A DNA stretch of 59,856 nt, filler included, from Circinaria calcarea (GCA_051942165.1; 13 parts of 13 records of this genome joined end to end with filler, not necessarily neighbours in it); one strand, 5' to 3'. Positions 25,664 through 32,218 are shown, counted from the whole stretch's first letter. Numbers and translations: made by a program. Notes: generated from the sequence alone by a model not told the origin.

Positions 25664-27650
25664 CTAGATCACATCGTTTGCACCAATCTGGCTCGGCATC
25701 ACTCCCCAGTGTTTCTGATCCTCTTTGACCAGTTCCTCGTCTTGGCGATTCTCGTGGTTGGAGAACATGTTCCAGACTCTGTGCTCAGTTTTCTCTTCCG
25801 ACTCATGCGTACCGTTGACTGCTTCCGGTGATATCGGTTTCTTCTGGTCCTCCTCTTCGATGACATGAGTGGTACTAGGGTACTGATAGGGAGTATAGTG
25901 CGTTGACTTCCGATCCGATGATGTATGGTTAACTGCCTCGAATGCGTTCGTGTGGTGGTTTGGAGTGCGCTCGTGTATTTGCTCATGGAGGTCCGCTGGA
26001 GCCGATGAGGTACCTACTGTGGTTCTACCTTTGGCTGCGGTGTCGCTGGTTGGTAGAACCTGTTGCGGCTCTGGGTTATCTGATACGTAGGTGCTTGATA
26101 TTGGGGTGATTGTAGCGTCAACGTTTCGCGATTCCTCGGGGCTTTGGTGAATGGAGACGTTTTCGTGTGACTGGTGAGTTGGAGTAGATTGGTCAGGTAC
26201 CACTCGCTCTCGCACCCGCCGATTTGGAGACAAGGGCATACTTTCGTCAGAACCATCTTCACCCAGCAACTCTTCATCACGAACTCCTTGCACCGACTCG
26301 TCGAGTATCATTGCCGATGTTGTACTGCCCTCGGCACCGATTTCACCTTCCACAGGCTCTTCTTTCTCGGCGCGTGCAACATACGGATTATCTCTCAACT
26401 CCTGATCTGTTACGTCTTTCCAAGAACACTTGGCGTGTTTTTTCGTGCATCCCTGGCAAGCGGTCAAATTCTTTAGGCAATCCATATGCAGCCTTCTACA
26501 TCGGTCGCAAGGCGGTAGTACCCGGTCGCCACGTTGTAGCTGATCCATCCTAGCTAGCATCTCGGCTTTGTACGGCCCGCTGTCATCGAAGCGATCCGCA
26601 GGTGAAGGTCGGTTGAAATTGAGGAGCGATGACGGAGTGTTCGGAATAGGTACTGGGGACGCGGAGTTCATTAATAAAGAAAAATCAACGAGTTCAGAGG
26701 AGGACTTTGGCTTTGATTTAGTCGAATGATGGGATCGAGAAGCGGAAGCTGGTGGCTTGCTAGACTGGTCGTAATCACTCGCTGATGTGTGTGCACCAGG
26801 GCTTGTGAAACAGTTCAGCAGCTCGGCACGTGTAGCAGGCGATGCAGTATGCAGATTTCTGCCGTTCCCTACATTCGGAGCGGGCACTTTCACACGATCT
26901 GAGGCTGCTGGCCCATAACCATTTTGGCTATGCCCACTTTCATTTGTTGTTGAAGGGCGGGAGTTAACGGCCACGAAGCCAGAAGTAGGAGATTGAGATG
27001 TCCGTTGGTCCCCGTTGGCTTGATTGCCTGATGAACCTCTGTCATTGGCCTGAAGAGAGGGTGTCGCGGAAGGGCTGGGATGGGATGGTTCACCACTGCA
27101 GGTTACTTCTGTCTCTCTTCTACTTATGATGGCATTCTTGCGGTTCTTCAGTCGGTGATTCAATTGCCGCGCTCGAGCTGAGACTATTAAATTATTAGCA
27201 AGCAGTGGATATATTTGTCAGTTGCGATGCCATCCTGACCTTGATCTGCAAGCTGAACGACATGCCCTATGTTCCTTTCCAATATCTCCAAAGTGCCCAA
27301 CTCCTTCTCCTCGTCCTCTGCAATGGGCTGTGGAGGTATGAGCTTCTGTGGCATGCCTGAAGCGATCAAAACGTAGTCTTCCTCGGAAATTTCAACCCGA
27401 CTCTGCTTTGTATAGAATTGGCAGACCCGTATGCCGTCTCGCGTCTTCTCTAGGTTGAACTGTTCCGGTTTGTGCCGGGCAAATTCAACAACATCCAACC
27501 ATGTAACCGATGTACCCTCTTTGCCATGGGTTTTGAGCACCTTTGGCGGTCCATCAAACAGCCTCTCAAACCTCTTTATAAGAATCGGCCCAAGAGGTCT
27601 TGCACCGAGATTTCCGGCCATGCTTTCATGCCTCTGCAATACGCCGTCGT
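25664..27650 (-). CDS. Conserved fungal protein with a Zn(II)2Cys6-like cluster, 5' truncated
   Basis: PPCDRCRRLHMDCLKNLTACQGCTKKHAKC; upstream exon LGARPLGPILIKRFERLFDGPP; intron 27184-27239 joins the frames. Confidence 0.85.
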
Positions 27651-27750
27651 NNNNNNNNNNNNNNNNNNNNNNNNNNNNNNNNNNNNNNNNNNNNTTAATT
27701 AATTAANNNNNNNNNNNNNNNNNNNNNNNNNNNNNNNNNNNNNNNNNNNN
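27651..27750. other. Artificial contig linker
   Basis: N44-TTAATTAATTAA-N44. Confidence 0.99.
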
Positions 27751-30207
27751 ATGAGAGGACGGGGGGAGTCGTGCTGGACGACATCTAAGATTGCACACGC
27801 GTTGAGTCGTATGCGGTTTTTGCTTGTGAGAAGGACCTTGCTAGGGTCGACCACTCTGGCAGCGAGCGCCAACGCATGAATGGCTTTGAGAGCATTGGCA
27901 ATTTGGACCATATAGCTCCATAGCACTTGCTCTGTGACATGAACAGTATTTTGGTTTCGAGTAGAGTAACGAGGGGCAAAATGTGTTTCTGCAAGAGTCT
28001 TGGACAAAGGGTGATACTCTGTCACAAACATCAAGGAACTATCGCCAAAACTGCGATTGGTAAAGGCATCGATGAAAGTTACGACGTTGCCGTTGTTCAG
28101 ACGCTTCCAAGCCTGAACTGATCGGATAGCTTTTTCATTGGTCAACCGGTAGCCTGCAAATGCAGTTAGCAGATTTCAGGAAAGATACTGTTCTAAAAGG
28201 ATTTACCCTCAAGTCGCCGAAGAGCATATGTATTCCCGTCTTTGCTTGATACAGCCTTGTAAATCCAACTTGGATATCCAAAAAGCGCTGCATTCTTTTG
28301 ATTGGTGGTATCAAGCGGGACGAGTGAGTGAAAATGGTCGATCTGTGGAGGAAGTGTAGAGTCTAGGAGGTATTAGCTGTAGCCTACCGGGTTATTGGCG
28401 CTCTGGCAAACGGCTCTCTCTAGTTTACGCACTTGGTAAGGTCTGTAGTGTAGCGGCAGATTTCCGTTGTAGATCTTCTCGAAGACTATCAGGTATGAAG
28501 AAATCATAAGCAGATCTCTGATAAGGATGGACAGCCTCTCGATGTGGCCCTAGTGATGTGTAAAGATGATATTGAACGGGTTGAGCATATGCCGAGTTAT
28601 GATAGTATGAGGCACCTCCTGAAGTACTTGCATCAGATGAGTAAGGGTTGAGTTGAGGCTGGCTAGAACCATTCGAGGCCACCGCGAGTGGGTTCGGAGG
28701 AGAGACATAAGGATCGTAAAGTCCTTGGCCGAGACCGCCGTTATGGTCGTTCTGGTTTATCTGATGAAACTGAGCCACTGCCGACTTAGGAAAAGAATGA
28801 GAGGGAATAAACGACATAGGAGAGTGGCGGGGATGATATCTAGGGGGTGTACGGATAGGTGTGGTATGGTAGGATCTATGGTAAGGGGGATGCCTTGGAG
28901 GGGGGGTCGTCATTGATGGATTAAAGGATTGGGCGTTTGCACTCAGAGTATTGGGATGGTTTTGAGATCCGGACGGAACAAAGATTCTTGCATCCATCCT
29001 TAAGGTGTCCTGCCTAGGGAATGAGGTGGATGGATGTCCTAGTGAATTGTTTGACGGTTCCATATGGAAAGGTGCAGGCGGTCCTCCTTGTGTACGCGGT
29101 TGCTCTGGTGCAACTCGATTCTCTCGCCTAATTTGCTTATCTCGTGCATTTTGCCTCGCTTGTTCCTTAGTCCATTTCGCACCAATCCTGTACTTATACG
29201 ATGGTGATGGTTGTGAGGGTGACGAAGATATGTAACGACCATCACTGAAAGGTGGTGTACGCATCGGTGCGGGACATCTTGGGAGCTCTGTAACCGGCAA
29301 ACCCACTGGAAGATGTGTGTAGCCGGTCACGAGCGATCTTTTGTCCATGGACGAATGCTTCCTCGGGGCGAAAATACTGAAAGAGTGCAGACTGAGATGA
29401 TGTGGAAGAATATGCAGCACTTACCAGAGATGACGAGAGATTCTGCGATTGAGGTTGGGGAAGGAACTCTGGAACCTCTGCGGAAGGTCCCAGCGCCCAA
29501 TCTGGAGCTGTTGGGTTGTACTGCTTCTTTGGCAATCCGCCAACGTCCGTACCTATGTGTCAATACTCATCAGCTTAACAGTTGATCTTGGCTAGCCATG
29601 GAGAGTGCCATACTCAAACCTAGCCCCTTGGGCTTGAAAGGGGCGGCACTTGCCGCTTTCGGAGAAAGTCCAAGGGATTTTGCGGCTGTGCCATTTACAG
29701 CGAGAGATGAAGTTGAAGCAGGCGTAAAACTCGGCGAGTCAACATTCAGCCGTTTCTTGAGACTGGAAAGGCCGGCAGGGAATGGTGAGCATTGTTACAA
29801 CTTCAACGAGTCTCTATTTGCCATGTACCTATCTGACTGGGTTGAAATTGCGGGCATTTTGACAGGTTCATGATTGAAGGCGCAGCCTACACATGCAATT
29901 GAGTTCCAGCCGACTTGTCTGTGGCTATATAATATACCTTTATCTTCGTATCGGCAATGACCATAAATTGTCACGTTCCGACATAGCGTATCTTTTGCAT
30001 TCTCTATTCGTCATCTTCGTCAGCTATCTTTTTTTTCTTTCCTCTCTTGCTCTCTTCCCCTCGGAACAAATTTCCATTTATCAGATGTAGTCCTCCTTCT
30101 ACTCTCAGACTGCACGGATATGGCCCAGGCTTACCACGCCCCTTCGACCGTGGAGACAGAGTGGCCCGCCGCACATCCTCTGAGATACCTCGCGTGACAG
30201 CCGCCAT
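27751..30207 (-). CDS. PAN3: PAN2-PAN3 deadenylase subunit PAN3, multi-exon, 3' truncated
   Basis: CCCH finger KDTLCRNVTIYGHCRYEDKGCAFNH, PAM2-like KRLNVDSPSFTP, QYHLY, LREDLQRKS, and pseudokinase segments FHSLVPLD, YALRRLEG, DAFTNRSFGDSSL, RIRLNACAILDVV. Introns include 28761-29424. Confidence 0.95.
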
Positions 30208-30625
30208 TTCAGGACCCACATCTCATCTGATAGACATCTTGTGTTGTGGAGTTGATCGCCCTGATGTAGGTAGTCAGCAGCATATAATATTTCAGCTTGA
30301 ACGTGCTTGGTCTTACCAAGACTCGTCGCTACGTCAGATCATGGTGTGAACACTCATCCCTCGTCGATAGCCGAATTGTAGTACTAAATGCAAGATAGCC
30401 AAGTAATTATGTGTAGTAGAGTGTGTTTAAACGAATGGTCCGGAGAGACCTCGAGCTATGGAGGGGGGAGGGGGGTTCCGCTCGCCGCATTGCGCTTTGC
30501 CGCGCTGCGCATAGACACAAATTATTTCTACGGCTACTCCGTAGGTAGACTTGATCAGACGCGACACCTTCCACTAGACCTTGGGTCTCCGATACTTCTC
30601 ATATACTAGAAGTACTTCGAGTTCA

Positions 30626-32218
30626 ATGGCAGAACCAAATCTCGATGTAGGGCAGCTCAGTGAGAACCAGCAAATCGCTTTGCAGACGTACACATCCGTC
30701 ACAAACCAGGAGCTTCCTGCAGCTATCCCGGTACTGCAAAGGTCTCAGTGGAATGTTCAGGTCGGTAGAGTCGTTCAGAAGCAACCATCGATCATCAGTT
30801 ACTCCTATTCTAACCCGAGAATCCAGATTGCTATTGCCAAGTTCTTCGATGGCGACGCACCAGATCTTGTCGAAGAAGCCCGCGCAGCACTCGCAGCCCC
30901 TCCCCAGCGTTCTACTCGTCAAGAAACATTGCTGAATGAGCTAAACACGATACCTCGATCATCCTCGTCTTCTCAGAGAGATGCCGCTCCACGAATCGTA
31001 CCTCAACCAGATAATCGAAACGTCTACAAACCCCCCTTTATATTCTCCATACTATTTACACCCTTCAACATCATCTATCGACTTTTTGTCGGCTCGCTGG
31101 GTCTATTTGTCCATCTCTTCCCCTTTCTACCTCGAGTGTTGACTAGGTTGTCCCCCAGAAATCCATCAAGAGGTCCACGAAGGAATACAACCGGTAGACG
31201 TCCGCTAAATCCGCGGGACACTGCGGCTAGATTCATTAGGGAGTTTGAAGAAGAGTACGGCAGTCATTCTCTACAGATGTTTGAGAATGGATATGCGCAA
31301 GCGTATGATCTTGCAAAAAAGGAGTTGAAATACTTACTGGTTGTTATTCTATCTCCCGAGCACGACGATACGGCGCCCTTTGTTCGAGAGACTTTACTTT
31401 CAACAGAGGTAGTGGACTTTATCAACGACCCTCAAAACAACATCATACTTTGGGCAGGAAGTGTTCAAGATTCAGAAGCCTATCAAGTTTCAAGTGCTTT
31501 AAACTGTACCAAACTCCCATTTGCTGCCCTGATTGTACACACTCCTCAAGATTCGTCTACATCAATGTCAACTATCGCCCGGGTTGCAGGAGTACTGCCT
31601 CCATCGGCGTTCGTAGCGAAGTTACAAACTGCCATCACTCAGCAATCAGGAGATTTGAATCGTATTCGTGCTACAAGAGCCGCGCAACAGGCGTCACGTA
31701 ATTTAAGACAGGAACAGAACTCGGCATATGAGCGATCCTTAGCCCAAGACCGAGAGCGGATGAGGCAGCGTCGTGAAGCCGAGGCTGCAAAGTTACAGGC
31801 TGAACGGGAGGCAAATTTAAAAATCGAAGCTTCTAAGCGACTAGCGCACCAAAGAGATCAGTGGAAGAGGTGGAGATCAAAACAGGTAGCGTCTGAACCA
31901 GAGGCAGATATCAAAGAGGTCACACGCATCAGTGTTCGGATGCCCTCGGGGGAGAGGGTCATTCGCCGGTTTCCGCCAGATGCTGGTATAGAGGAGCTAT
32001 ATGCCTTCGTTGAGTGTCATGACTTATTGCAAGATGAGGAGTCTGTACTAGAGGCATCTCAACCGCAGGACTATAAACATGTTTACAGCTTCAATCTTGT
32101 ATCGCCTGTGCCACGAATAGTCTATGACCTGGGCAGTGGTGGCACACTCGGCGACAGGATCGGGCGGAGTGCTAACCTCATTGTGGAGCCGATTCAAGAC
32201 GACGAAGATGAAGAGTAA
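30626..32218 (+). CDS. UBX domain protein (Ubx2/FAF2-like: UBA-like, hairpin, UAS, coiled coil, UBX)
   Basis: LQRSQWNVQIAIAKFFD, ARFIREFEEEYG, LRQEQNSAYERSLAQD, RISVRMPSGERVIRRF, LVSPVPR; in-frame 66-bp intron 30761-30826. Confidence 0.92.
   Translation: MAEPNLDVGQLSENQQIALQTYTSVTNQELPAAIPVLQRSQWNVQVGRVVQKQPSIISYSYSNPRIQIAIAKFFDGDAPDLVEEARAALAAPPQRSTRQETLLNELNTIPRSSSSSQRDAAPRIVPQPDNRNVYKPPFIFSILFTPFNIIYRLFVGSLGLFVHLFPFLPRVLTRLSPRNPSRGPRRNTTGRRPLNPRDTAARFIREFEEEYGSHSLQMFENGYAQAYDLAKKELKYLLVVILSPEHDDTAPFVRETLLSTEVVDFINDPQNNIILWAGSVQDSEAYQVSSALNCTKLPFAALIVHTPQDSSTSMSTIARVAGVLPPSAFVAKLQTAITQQSGDLNRIRATRAAQQASRNLRQEQNSAYERSLAQDRERMRQRREAEAAKLQAEREANLKIEASKRLAHQRDQWKRWRSKQVASEPEADIKEVTRISVRMPSGERVIRRFPPDAGIEELYAFVECHDLLQDEESVLEASQPQDYKHVYSFNLVSPVPRIVYDLGSGGTLGDRIGRSANLIVEPIQDDEDEE

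What the first reader, a model, noticed from the sequence alone, without database searches (positions are those of the whole stretch)
28761..29424. PAN3 long intron hides an in-frame ORF with two extra PAM2-like motifs: candidate alternative Pan3 isoform
Seen: this 664-bp intron (GTAAGT...CATCAG, phase 0) is far longer than the ~45-130-bp introns elsewhere in the window. It is stop-free for ~220 codons in the frame of the DOWNSTREAM exon and encodes TLRMDARIFVPS (~29006-28971) and TLSANAQSFNPS (~28949-28914), both fitting the PAM2 pattern LxxxAxxFxP. Known: Pan3 binds the PABP MLLE domain through PAM2 motifs, so this is exactly the motif Pan3 uses. Inference: simple retention would frameshift (664 mod 3 = 1). 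The segment would instead be used through an internal start (ATG 29348), giving a Pan3 without the CCCH finger, or through an alternative in-frame acceptor (e.g. CAG at 29012-29010), adding two PAM2 motifs. Either would tune deadenylase recruitment. I know of no description of this in filamentous fungi.
Basis: partly seen in the sequence, partly recalled or inferred. Interest (0 to 1): 0.72.

Follow-up and report, generated by a model that had tools for sequence, protein, structure and literature searches.

The report
Hidden PAM2 exon in fungal PAN3
A long intron in a fungal gene that helps trim mRNA tails also encodes a conserved docking motif for poly(A)-binding protein, so the gene probably makes a second, unrecognised form of the protein, although no transcript of that form has yet been seen.

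Summary
Confirmed and conserved; transcript not shown. The 664-nt PAN3 intron (29424-28761, minus strand) is open for 220 codons in the downstream exon's frame (0 of 20,000 shuffles) and encodes two PAM2-like motifs. Related fungi carry fast-diverging open frames at the same place: 28 of 35 such sequences (window included) hold [LF]xxxAxxFxP, against 0.22 in shuffles. They group with named lichen fungi. Six Aspergillus, Penicillium and Talaromyces gene models capture the same hidden motif. The frame stays open at least 74 codons upstream of the motif in 26 of 28, and start methionines align among kin. The best reading is therefore an internal first exon giving Pan3 without its zinc finger and with a replacement PAM2 (about 0.6). 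One motif is conserved, not two. Three RNA runs of a close relative confirm the donor and other introns and show one exon-skipping joint, but do not cover the segment. One locus has a 735-nt intron without the frame. A zinc-finger-less Pan3 cDNA is on record for Chaetomium. The scan found the same feature before in another genome (e1-7679943).

The parts
30135..30207 (-). PAN3 exon 1 (ATG at 30207)
   Evidence: Spliced model open for 451 codons; RNA joint 30135-30003 in 2 of 3 runs
29829..30003 (-). PAN3 exons 2-3, encoding the CCCH zinc finger (residues 32-52); 51-nt intron at 29887-29937
   Evidence: RNA joint 29937-29885 in 2 of 3 runs
29620..29762 (-). PAN3 exon 4 with the normal PAM2 (LNVDSPSFTP, about 29720-29749; Ser where the consensus has Ala)
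   Evidence: aligned position in other fungal Pan3 proteins
29425..29552 (-). PAN3 exon 5; its donor (GTAAGT at 29424) is used in RNA
   Evidence: Likeness to Ptychographa P0003; RNA contig leaves the exon at 29425
28761..29424 (-). 664-nt intron of the normal isoform, which also reads as coding sequence
28761..29420 (-). Hidden open frame, 220 codons, continuous with exon 6; rich in Ser/Pro/Arg/His, probably disordered (inferred from composition)
   Evidence: codon-model score -0.06 bits/codon against background -0.33 (SD 0.12) and true exons 0.09-0.23
29346..29348 (-). Candidate internal start ATG (196 codons to the acceptor; 115 to motif 1)
   Evidence: use is inferred
29262..29264 (-). Second candidate start ATG (87 codons to motif 1, nearest the median of 89.5 in relatives)
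   Evidence: use is inferred
28974..29003 (-). Hidden PAM2-like motif 1, LRMDARIFVP
   Evidence: aligns with Xylographa LSMEAKPFIP in BLASTP
28917..28946 (-). Hidden PAM2-like motif 2, LSANAQSFNP (better fit to the consensus)
   Evidence: Pfam PAM2 9.7 bits, below the cut-off of 20; aligns with relatives' motif in MAFFT
29242..29244 (-). TGA that ends the upstream-exon frame if the intron is retained (216-aa product)
28770..28775 (-). Non-canonical branch-site candidate GCTCAG
   Evidence: matching dipeptide class in 31 of 35 related sequences against 22% background; role inferred
28752..28763 (-). Two in-frame acceptor candidates (CAG ending 28761 and CAG ending 28752)
28433..28760 (-). PAN3 exon 6 (328 nt), shared by both proposed isoforms; skipped in one RNA contig
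27751..28362 (-). PAN3 exons 7-8, start of the pseudokinase; cut by an assembly gap at 27750
   Evidence: Pkinase 32.7 bits; RNA joints 28433-28362 and 28209-28155; N run

Best explanation
The intron holds an alternative first coding exon of PAN3. Shown: an open frame continuous with exon 6, conserved as open and PAM2-bearing across lichen fungi and in some Eurotiales while the rest of its sequence diverges. Inferred: a second promoter in or just before the intron starts a transcript read from an internal ATG (29348 or 29264) through the intron's 3' part into exon 6. [quoted passage not shown] It lacks the poly(A)-binding CCCH finger and the normal PAM2, and has a disordered tail with a PAM2 that keeps the consensus Ala. 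That form would reach mRNA mainly through the MLLE domain of Pab1, and basic-x-x-Ser sites near the motif may make the contact phosphorylation-sensitive. Because two Pan3 chains serve one Pan2, mixed dimers could tune deadenylation.
For: Frame open beyond chance. 28 of 35 related in-frame segments hold [LF]xxxAxxFxP; shuffle mean 0.22, maximum 3 in 2,000 rounds. 11 of 12 hits whose aligned stretch began after the query's motifs still carry one, so the search did not select for it. Met-to-motif distance has median 89.5 aa (IQR 79.5-107) and is 74 or more in 26 of 28, against about 0.05 per sequence for neutral DNA. Start Met columns align in six Xylographa/Ptychographa-like sequences. A Met lies 9-15 residues before the motif in 6 of 7 Eurotiales-type sequences, and the two Aspergillus models align from 'MG'. 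Two Xylographa, one Aspergillus, one Talaromyces and one Penicillium NCBI model already start in this segment and lack the finger. P0025 (alternative N-terminus) and P0003 (normal N-terminus) share an identical exon 6. Basic-x-x-Ser within 30 aa before the motif: 24 of 29 against shuffle mean 9.9 (pattern chosen after seeing the data). Biochemical roles of the finger and of PAM2: PMC4158885, PMC9249222.
Against: No transcript covers the segment: three RNA runs have no cover at 28635-29394, and none of 10 Logan-derived long Pan3 entries carries it. No DNA of a positive relative was obtained, so starts, promoters, frame relation to exon 5 and dN/dS are untested. The Mets are gene-caller choices, and database models are predictions. 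The start differs between groups (about 90 aa before the motif in lichen fungi, 9-15 in Eurotiales). 7 of 35 lack the core motif, at least three at key residues (P0025, P0029, P0047). L025 has a 735-nt intron at this site with stops and no motif. The codon score is below true exons, and over the first 160 nt the upstream-exon frame scores higher (short, noisy stretches). No motif reaches Pfam's cut-off. Binding was not tested.
Confidence: 0.6

Rival explanations
1. Alternative 3' splice site: the exon-5 donor is joined to an in-frame AG inside the intron, giving a longer Pan3 that keeps the finger and the normal PAM2 and gains one or two more motifs.
For: The join to CAG 29010 is open. Some Penicillium and Aspergillus models are built this way (P0194, P0199, P0244). 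The normal acceptor has a weak branch site, conserved in class, and is bypassed in one RNA contig.
Against: An acceptor next to the motif leaves the 74 or more open codons upstream unexplained. In-frame AGs near the intron's 5' end (29358, 29286, 29193) have poor context, and the pyrimidine-rich ones (29392, 29377, 29245) are out of frame. The Eurotiales models pick different AGs, one apparently inside the motif (P0056), as predictions would.
Confidence: 0.2
2. The intron is retained in a main-promoter mRNA and the hidden frame is reached by re-initiation, leaky scanning or a frameshift in the 60-codon overlap; or the assembly has a one-base error and retention is in frame.
For: Both frames are open over the first 180 nt. 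The upstream-exon frame has the better codon score over 29420-29265. ATG 29264 lies 20 nt before the TGA at 29244. The weak branch site would favour retention.
Against: A 60-codon open stretch arises by chance about 9% of the time (from the stop rate). None of the motif-bearing Eurotiales models reads through from the donor; the one that seems to (P0171, P. salamii) has no motif. No known frameshift signal was recognised (from recall).
Confidence: 0.1
3. The open frame and motifs are chance or a non-functional relic, for example of a duplicated copy of exons 4-5.
For: Sequence outside the motif is poorly conserved (alignment A2). Some relatives lack it (L025, L024, P. salamii). No RNA cover.
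Against: Motif enrichment 28 against 0.22, in sequences from different 50%-identity clusters. A profile of 83 normal exon 4-5 segments scores the masked alternative segments like shuffles (median -0.2 bits), so no duplication is detectable. No Rfam match, no meaningful repeats and no antisense frame explain the openness.
Confidence: 0.06
4. The segment is translated mainly as a short PAM2 decoy, from internal transcripts that stop early or retain the next intron, and competes for Pab1 without carrying Pan2.
For: The genomic frame ends at a stop just inside intron 6 (28425), as in most related ORFs.
Against: That stop is what any spliced intron gives. Intron 6 is spliced in RNA and has a canonical branch site.
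Confidence: 0.04

Closest known systems
Chaetomium thermophilum Pan3 splice variant without the N-terminal zinc finger (GenBank KJ657771, named in PMC4158885)
   Same: A cDNA-cloned Pan3 form of a filamentous fungus that lacks the CCCH finger (passage read).
   Different: The passages read give only the accession, with no mechanism or function; 12 of 13 supplements searched held nothing on it. Its sequence could not be fetched, so it is unknown whether it swaps its PAM2. Sordariomycete-like loci seen here have no long intron at this site.
Human Pan3L / Pan3S isoforms (PMC5558910)
   Same: Two Pan3 isoforms that differ in the N-terminal region near PAM2 and in PABP binding, with opposite effects on Pan2 (abstract and section 5 read; a corrigendum exists and was not read).
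   Different: There a 55-aa segment is included or left out just before one shared PAM2. Here a separate 160-450 aa segment (shorter in Eurotiales) carries its own PAM2 and, in the favoured model, replaces both the finger and the normal motif.
PAM2 motif (consensus xxLNxxAxEFxP; Pfam PF07145) binding the MLLE domain of PABP/Pab1
   Same: Leu/Phe, Ala, Phe and Pro at the consensus spacing, within low-complexity sequence (consensus from PMC9249222).
   Different: Positions 4 and 9 usually differ (Ser or Asn; Pro, Ser or Asp). Scores are below Pfam's cut-off. Binding is untested.
Fungal Pan3 (PAN2-PAN3 deadenylase subunit; PF25586 finger, PF18101)
   Same: The host gene is an ordinary PAN3.
   Different: Databases annotate one form per genome, sometimes the normal one and sometimes the hidden one. 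A. clavatus NRRL 1 has a model with (P0244) and one without (P0233) the segment.

Membership tests
Pan3 | N-terminal CCCH zinc finger | tested here: met
   CCCH pattern at residues 32-52 of the spliced model; absent from the proposed internal isoform by construction
Pan3 | PAM2 motif in the N-terminal region | tested here: met
   LNVDSPSFTP in exon 4, aligned with other fungal Pan3 proteins
Pan3 | Pseudokinase domain | tested here: met
   Pkinase 32.7 bits on 27792-28151; best hits are named Pan3
Pan3 | Coiled coil and C-terminal domain (PF18101) | not testable with these tools
   Gene is cut by the N gap at 27750 and no genome is held; present in relatives
PAM2 motif | Leu/Phe3, Ala7, Phe10, Pro12 spacing | tested here: met
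   Both window motifs; 28 of 35 related segments
PAM2 motif | Asn4 and Glu9 of the textbook consensus | tested here: not met
   Window motifs have Arg4/Ile9 and Ser4/Ser9; many relatives have Asn4, few Glu9
PAM2 motif | Pfam PF07145 gathering score (20 bits) | tested here: not met
   9.7 bits for the window, best 11.8 among 30 proteins; the normal Pan3 motif of P0003 is not listed either
PAM2 motif | Binds the MLLE domain of Pab1 | not testable with these tools
   No Pab1 sequence was in hand and no binding job was run
Alternative first exon | Transcription start inside the gene | not testable with these tools
   Only contigs of RNA runs were available; they cannot show starts
Alternative first exon | Spliced transcript joining the segment to downstream exons | tested here: inconclusive
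   No cover at 28635-29394 in 3 low-depth runs; 0 of 10 Logan-derived long entries
Alternative first exon | Conserved in-frame start codon | tested here: inconclusive
   Aligned Met within subgroups, protein level only; not alignable between groups
Duplicated mutually exclusive exon | Homology to the normal exons 4-5 | tested here: not met
   Masked segments score like shuffles against a profile of 83 normal segments
Human Pan3L/Pan3S-type splicing | Optional insert directly upstream of one shared PAM2 | tested here: not met
   The segment lies downstream of the normal PAM2 and has its own motif

The most novel reading that the evidence does not exclude
Lichen-forming fungi and part of the Eurotiomycetes keep a hidden internal first exon in PAN3 that switches the deadenylase adaptor from a zinc-finger form, which reads poly(A) directly, to a finger-less form with a stronger, phosphorylation-gated PAM2. 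A conserved weak branch site at the same intron also lowers output of the normal form through exon skipping. Together these would be an unrecognised switch of global poly(A) shortening, testable in Aspergillus.
Probability: 0.3. Interest if true: 0.8.

Novelty: new variant of a known kind. Interest (0 to 1): 0.62.

Why it matters
Pan2-Pan3 carries out the first step of mRNA tail shortening, and Pan3 reaches its substrate through three weak contacts: finger, PAM2 and pseudokinase surface (PMC4158885). A conserved form that drops one contact and rebuilds another would be a natural experiment on how much each matters, and a fungal parallel to the opposing human isoforms. It also explains why database models of Pan3 in these fungi disagree at the N-terminus. 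Because the motif appears in Aspergillus, Penicillium and Talaromyces models, existing RNA-seq, 5'-end and ribosome-profiling data can test it without culturing a lichen.

Tried and rejected
Own genome: none is held, so the 3' half of PAN3, paralogues and Pab1 could not be examined. Cluster members of the Xylographa proteins could not be listed. RNA: three biocrust runs of one study, shares 0.05-0.08, contigs only; lack of cover over the segment and over the exon 5-6 junction is no evidence either way. DNA of relatives: 53 metagenome loci; 37 could be measured, 35 have 402-634 nt between the normal PAM2 and the exon-6 anchor, and none shows an extra in-frame motif; genome contigs and viral contigs gave nothing. 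So no dN/dS. The first tree had four mis-cut rows and was replaced, which dropped five rows that lacked the end pattern (P0211, P0250, P0245, P0072, P0100). Exon duplication was rejected. Structured RNA: 0 Rfam matches at E up to 1. Repeats: only short two-copy matches. Antisense gene: 9-13 stops per frame. Pfam does not call any of the motifs. The Atlas gave no answer. The count of 120 normal motifs with Ser/Thr is true by construction and is not used. No fold or complex was predicted: the segment looks disordered, and a PAM2-MLLE pair would pass by likeness to solved structures. Papers: searches found no description of this exon; the library lacks most subscription journals and bioRxiv supplements were not seen. 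PMC12393371 (passages) is unrelated.

Full report
Observation. PAN3 lies on the minus strand from ATG 30207. Eight exons splice into an open frame of 451 codons up to an assembly gap at 27750. The fifth intron, 29424-28761, is 664 nt; the other six are 51-131 nt. In the frame of exon 6 it has only the stop inside the donor and then 220 open codons. None of 20,000 base shuffles was open, and none of 20,000 residue shuffles gave two LxxxAxxFxP motifs. The motifs lie at 29003-28974 and 28946-28917. Retention would stop at TGA 29244 and give 216 residues. No antisense frame, Rfam match or notable repeat explains the openness. A codon model trained on the window scores the segment at -0.06 bits per codon, between background (-0.33, SD 0.12) and true exons (0.09-0.23).

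RNA. Three biocrust RNA runs of one study hold contigs mostly 95-99% like this gene. They confirm four introns and the exon-5 donor. They do not cover 28635-29394, so they say nothing on the segment. One contig in run X2 joins exon 5 directly to exon 7 (depth 6.15, against 4.31 for the exon 6-7 joint; 30 letters on the short side). That skips 328 coding bases and gives a stop at codon 212. It is one contig from a relative, but both ends are at real splice sites.

Conservation in lichen fungi. The best database hits are Pan3 models of Xylographa and Ptychographa, Lecanoromycetes (for Xylographa). Two Xylographa models have no finger and no normal PAM2; they start in a segment whose motif aligns with window motif 1. 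A phmmer search of 1.84 billion representatives gave 138 hits. Of proteins P0001-P0158, 55 could be classed by two anchor patterns: 34 with a long non-canonical N-terminus in frame with exon 6, 11 normal and 10 short; the other 103 were not classed. I added P0024 (80 aa upstream) to make 35: the window, two Xylographa models and 32 unnamed ORFs. 28 of 35 hold [LF]xxxAxxFxP; shuffles give a mean of 0.22 and at most 3. Five of the 28 have two motifs. Of the seven without, four differ mildly (P0004, P0053, P0060, P0070) and three lose a key residue (P0025, P0029, P0047). Four short-upstream entries have no motif. Selection by the query is not the cause: 11 of 12 hits aligned only downstream of the query's motifs carry one. 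On a tree of exon 6 (110 columns, FastTree, 60 rows, five dropped) all 31 unnamed ORFs included fall with the window, Xylographa, Ptychographa, Lambiella and Loxospora in one group of 37, support 96. Because short ORFs collapse into few clusters and long divergent ones do not, these counts do not give the share of species that have the feature. P0022 is identical to the window and is not independent.

Beyond lichens. Among 106 further Pan3 proteins (P0159-P0264), six carry the core motif upstream of exon 6, all Eurotiales and all within this intron: Aspergillus viridinutans, A. clavatus, Talaromyces atroroseus and three Penicillium species. The normal motif has Ser at the Ala position and fails this pattern. 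Unnamed P0157, P0072 and P0100 show a similar motif; P0157 resembles Eurotiales, and the other two recall Chaetothyriales (from memory, not tested). The feature is patchy: P. salamii and P. brevicompactum models show intron sequence without the motif. Of 53 metagenome loci, 37 could be measured; 35 have no room for a long intron, L024 has about 240 nt and L025 has 735 nt with stops and no motif. L025 falls outside the lichen group. No locus with the feature was among them, so all positive evidence from relatives is at protein level.

How it is used. The distance from the called Met to the first motif has median 89.5 aa and is at least 74 in 26 of 28, whereas neutral DNA stays open that far about 5% of the time. 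The coding constraint therefore runs well upstream of the motif, which an acceptor at 29010 would not need. Start Mets align in six Xylographa/Ptychographa-like sequences. In Eurotiales-type sequences a Met lies 9-15 residues before the motif in 6 of 7, and two Aspergillus models align from 'MG'; three of these Mets are model starts or gene-caller choices. Good-looking acceptors near the intron's 5' end are out of frame. I put an internal first exon at 0.6, an alternative acceptor at 0.2, retention with re-initiation, frameshift or an assembly slip at 0.1, chance or relic at 0.06, and a short decoy at 0.04. Together, the probability that the segment is selected coding sequence is about 0.9. 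The segment is not a detectable duplicate of exons 4-5. Two further patterns were chosen after seeing the data: basic-x-x-Ser sites within 30 aa before the motif (24 of 29, shuffle mean 9.9) and an [APST][QHY] dipeptide just before the acceptor (31 of 35, background 22%). In the window and in L025 the latter is GCTCAG or GCTCAT, a non-canonical branch site; two ordinary introns of this gene also use such sites, so its weight is modest.

Mechanism. Known: the Pan3 finger binds poly(A) (Kd about 60-100 uM), PAM2 binds PABP (40-150 uM), one Pan2 binds a Pan3 dimer, and loss of the finger removes poly(A) preference and slightly slows deadenylation (PMC4158885, passages). Leu and Phe of xxLNxxAxEFxP make the MLLE contacts (PMC9249222, passages; bioRxiv 2025.09.27.678968, passages, places PAM2 in the disordered N-terminus). 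Phosphorylation of disordered sequence near PAM2 can weaken PABP binding in Tob2 (PMC7430666, passages). Inferred: the internal form binds Pan2 normally, relies on Pab1 for recruitment, and may bind it more tightly because it keeps the consensus Ala. None of this was tested here.

Comparison with what is known. Human Pan3L and Pan3S differ by 55 aa before one shared PAM2 and act oppositely (PMC5558910, abstract and section 5). A finger-less splice variant of C. thermophilum Pan3 was cloned and deposited (PMC4158885, accession section); its structure is not given in the passages read or in 12 of 13 supplements searched. Seven paper searches found no account of a hidden PAM2 exon at this intron; the library is incomplete. 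The scan's own notes had nothing by sequence and one finding by words, e1-7679943, on another lichen-type genome. It agrees, but it is an AI note, and I had reached this reading before seeing it.

Verdict. A real, conserved, dual-use intron; most likely an unannotated alternative first exon. New variant of a known kind. Interest 0.62: strong comparative support and a clear test in Aspergillus, held back by the lack of any transcript or binding data.

Noticed in passing
window 29425 to 28362 (run X2, record 7): An RNA contig of a close relative joins PAN3 exon 5 to exon 7, skipping exon 6. This shifts the frame and would give a short finger-plus-PAM2 product or an NMD target. One contig only.
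   Followed up: partly
window 27651-27750: Assembly gap of Ns with a TTAATTAATTAA linker cuts off the 3' half of PAN3. The DNA beyond belongs to another gene, so adjacency across the gap is uncertain.
   Followed up: no
window 30578-32218 (+): Gene with UBA-like and UBX domains lies head to head with PAN3, about 400 nt away; they may share a promoter.
   Followed up: partly
window 25664-27217 (-): Long exon with a weak Zn(2)-Cys(6) match (18.2 bits, below cut-off), beyond the gap.
   Followed up: partly
window 30261-30318: RNA contigs of the relative lack about 55 nt upstream of the PAN3 start, without GT-AG ends; probably a strain deletion in the 5' UTR.
   Followed up: no
L025 3284-4018: 735-nt intron at the same PAN3 position with the same weak branch-site type but with stops and no PAM2: a possible ancestral or decayed state.
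   Followed up: partly
P0087, P0109, P0123: Models from other fungal groups have long extra sequence just upstream of the normal PAM2, two of them without a finger. This may be a separate finger-less first exon, perhaps like the Chaetomium variant.
   Followed up: no
window 29424-29242: The upstream-exon frame stays open for 60 codons into the intron and has the better codon score over about the first 160 nt; unexplained, possibly chance.
   Followed up: partly
P0034, P0039, P0040, P0041, P0043, P0044, P0048, P0050, P0052: A second short motif of the type RRAVS(F/L/Y)ESG lies upstream of the hidden PAM2 in one subgroup; it looks like a kinase site (from recall).
   Followed up: partly
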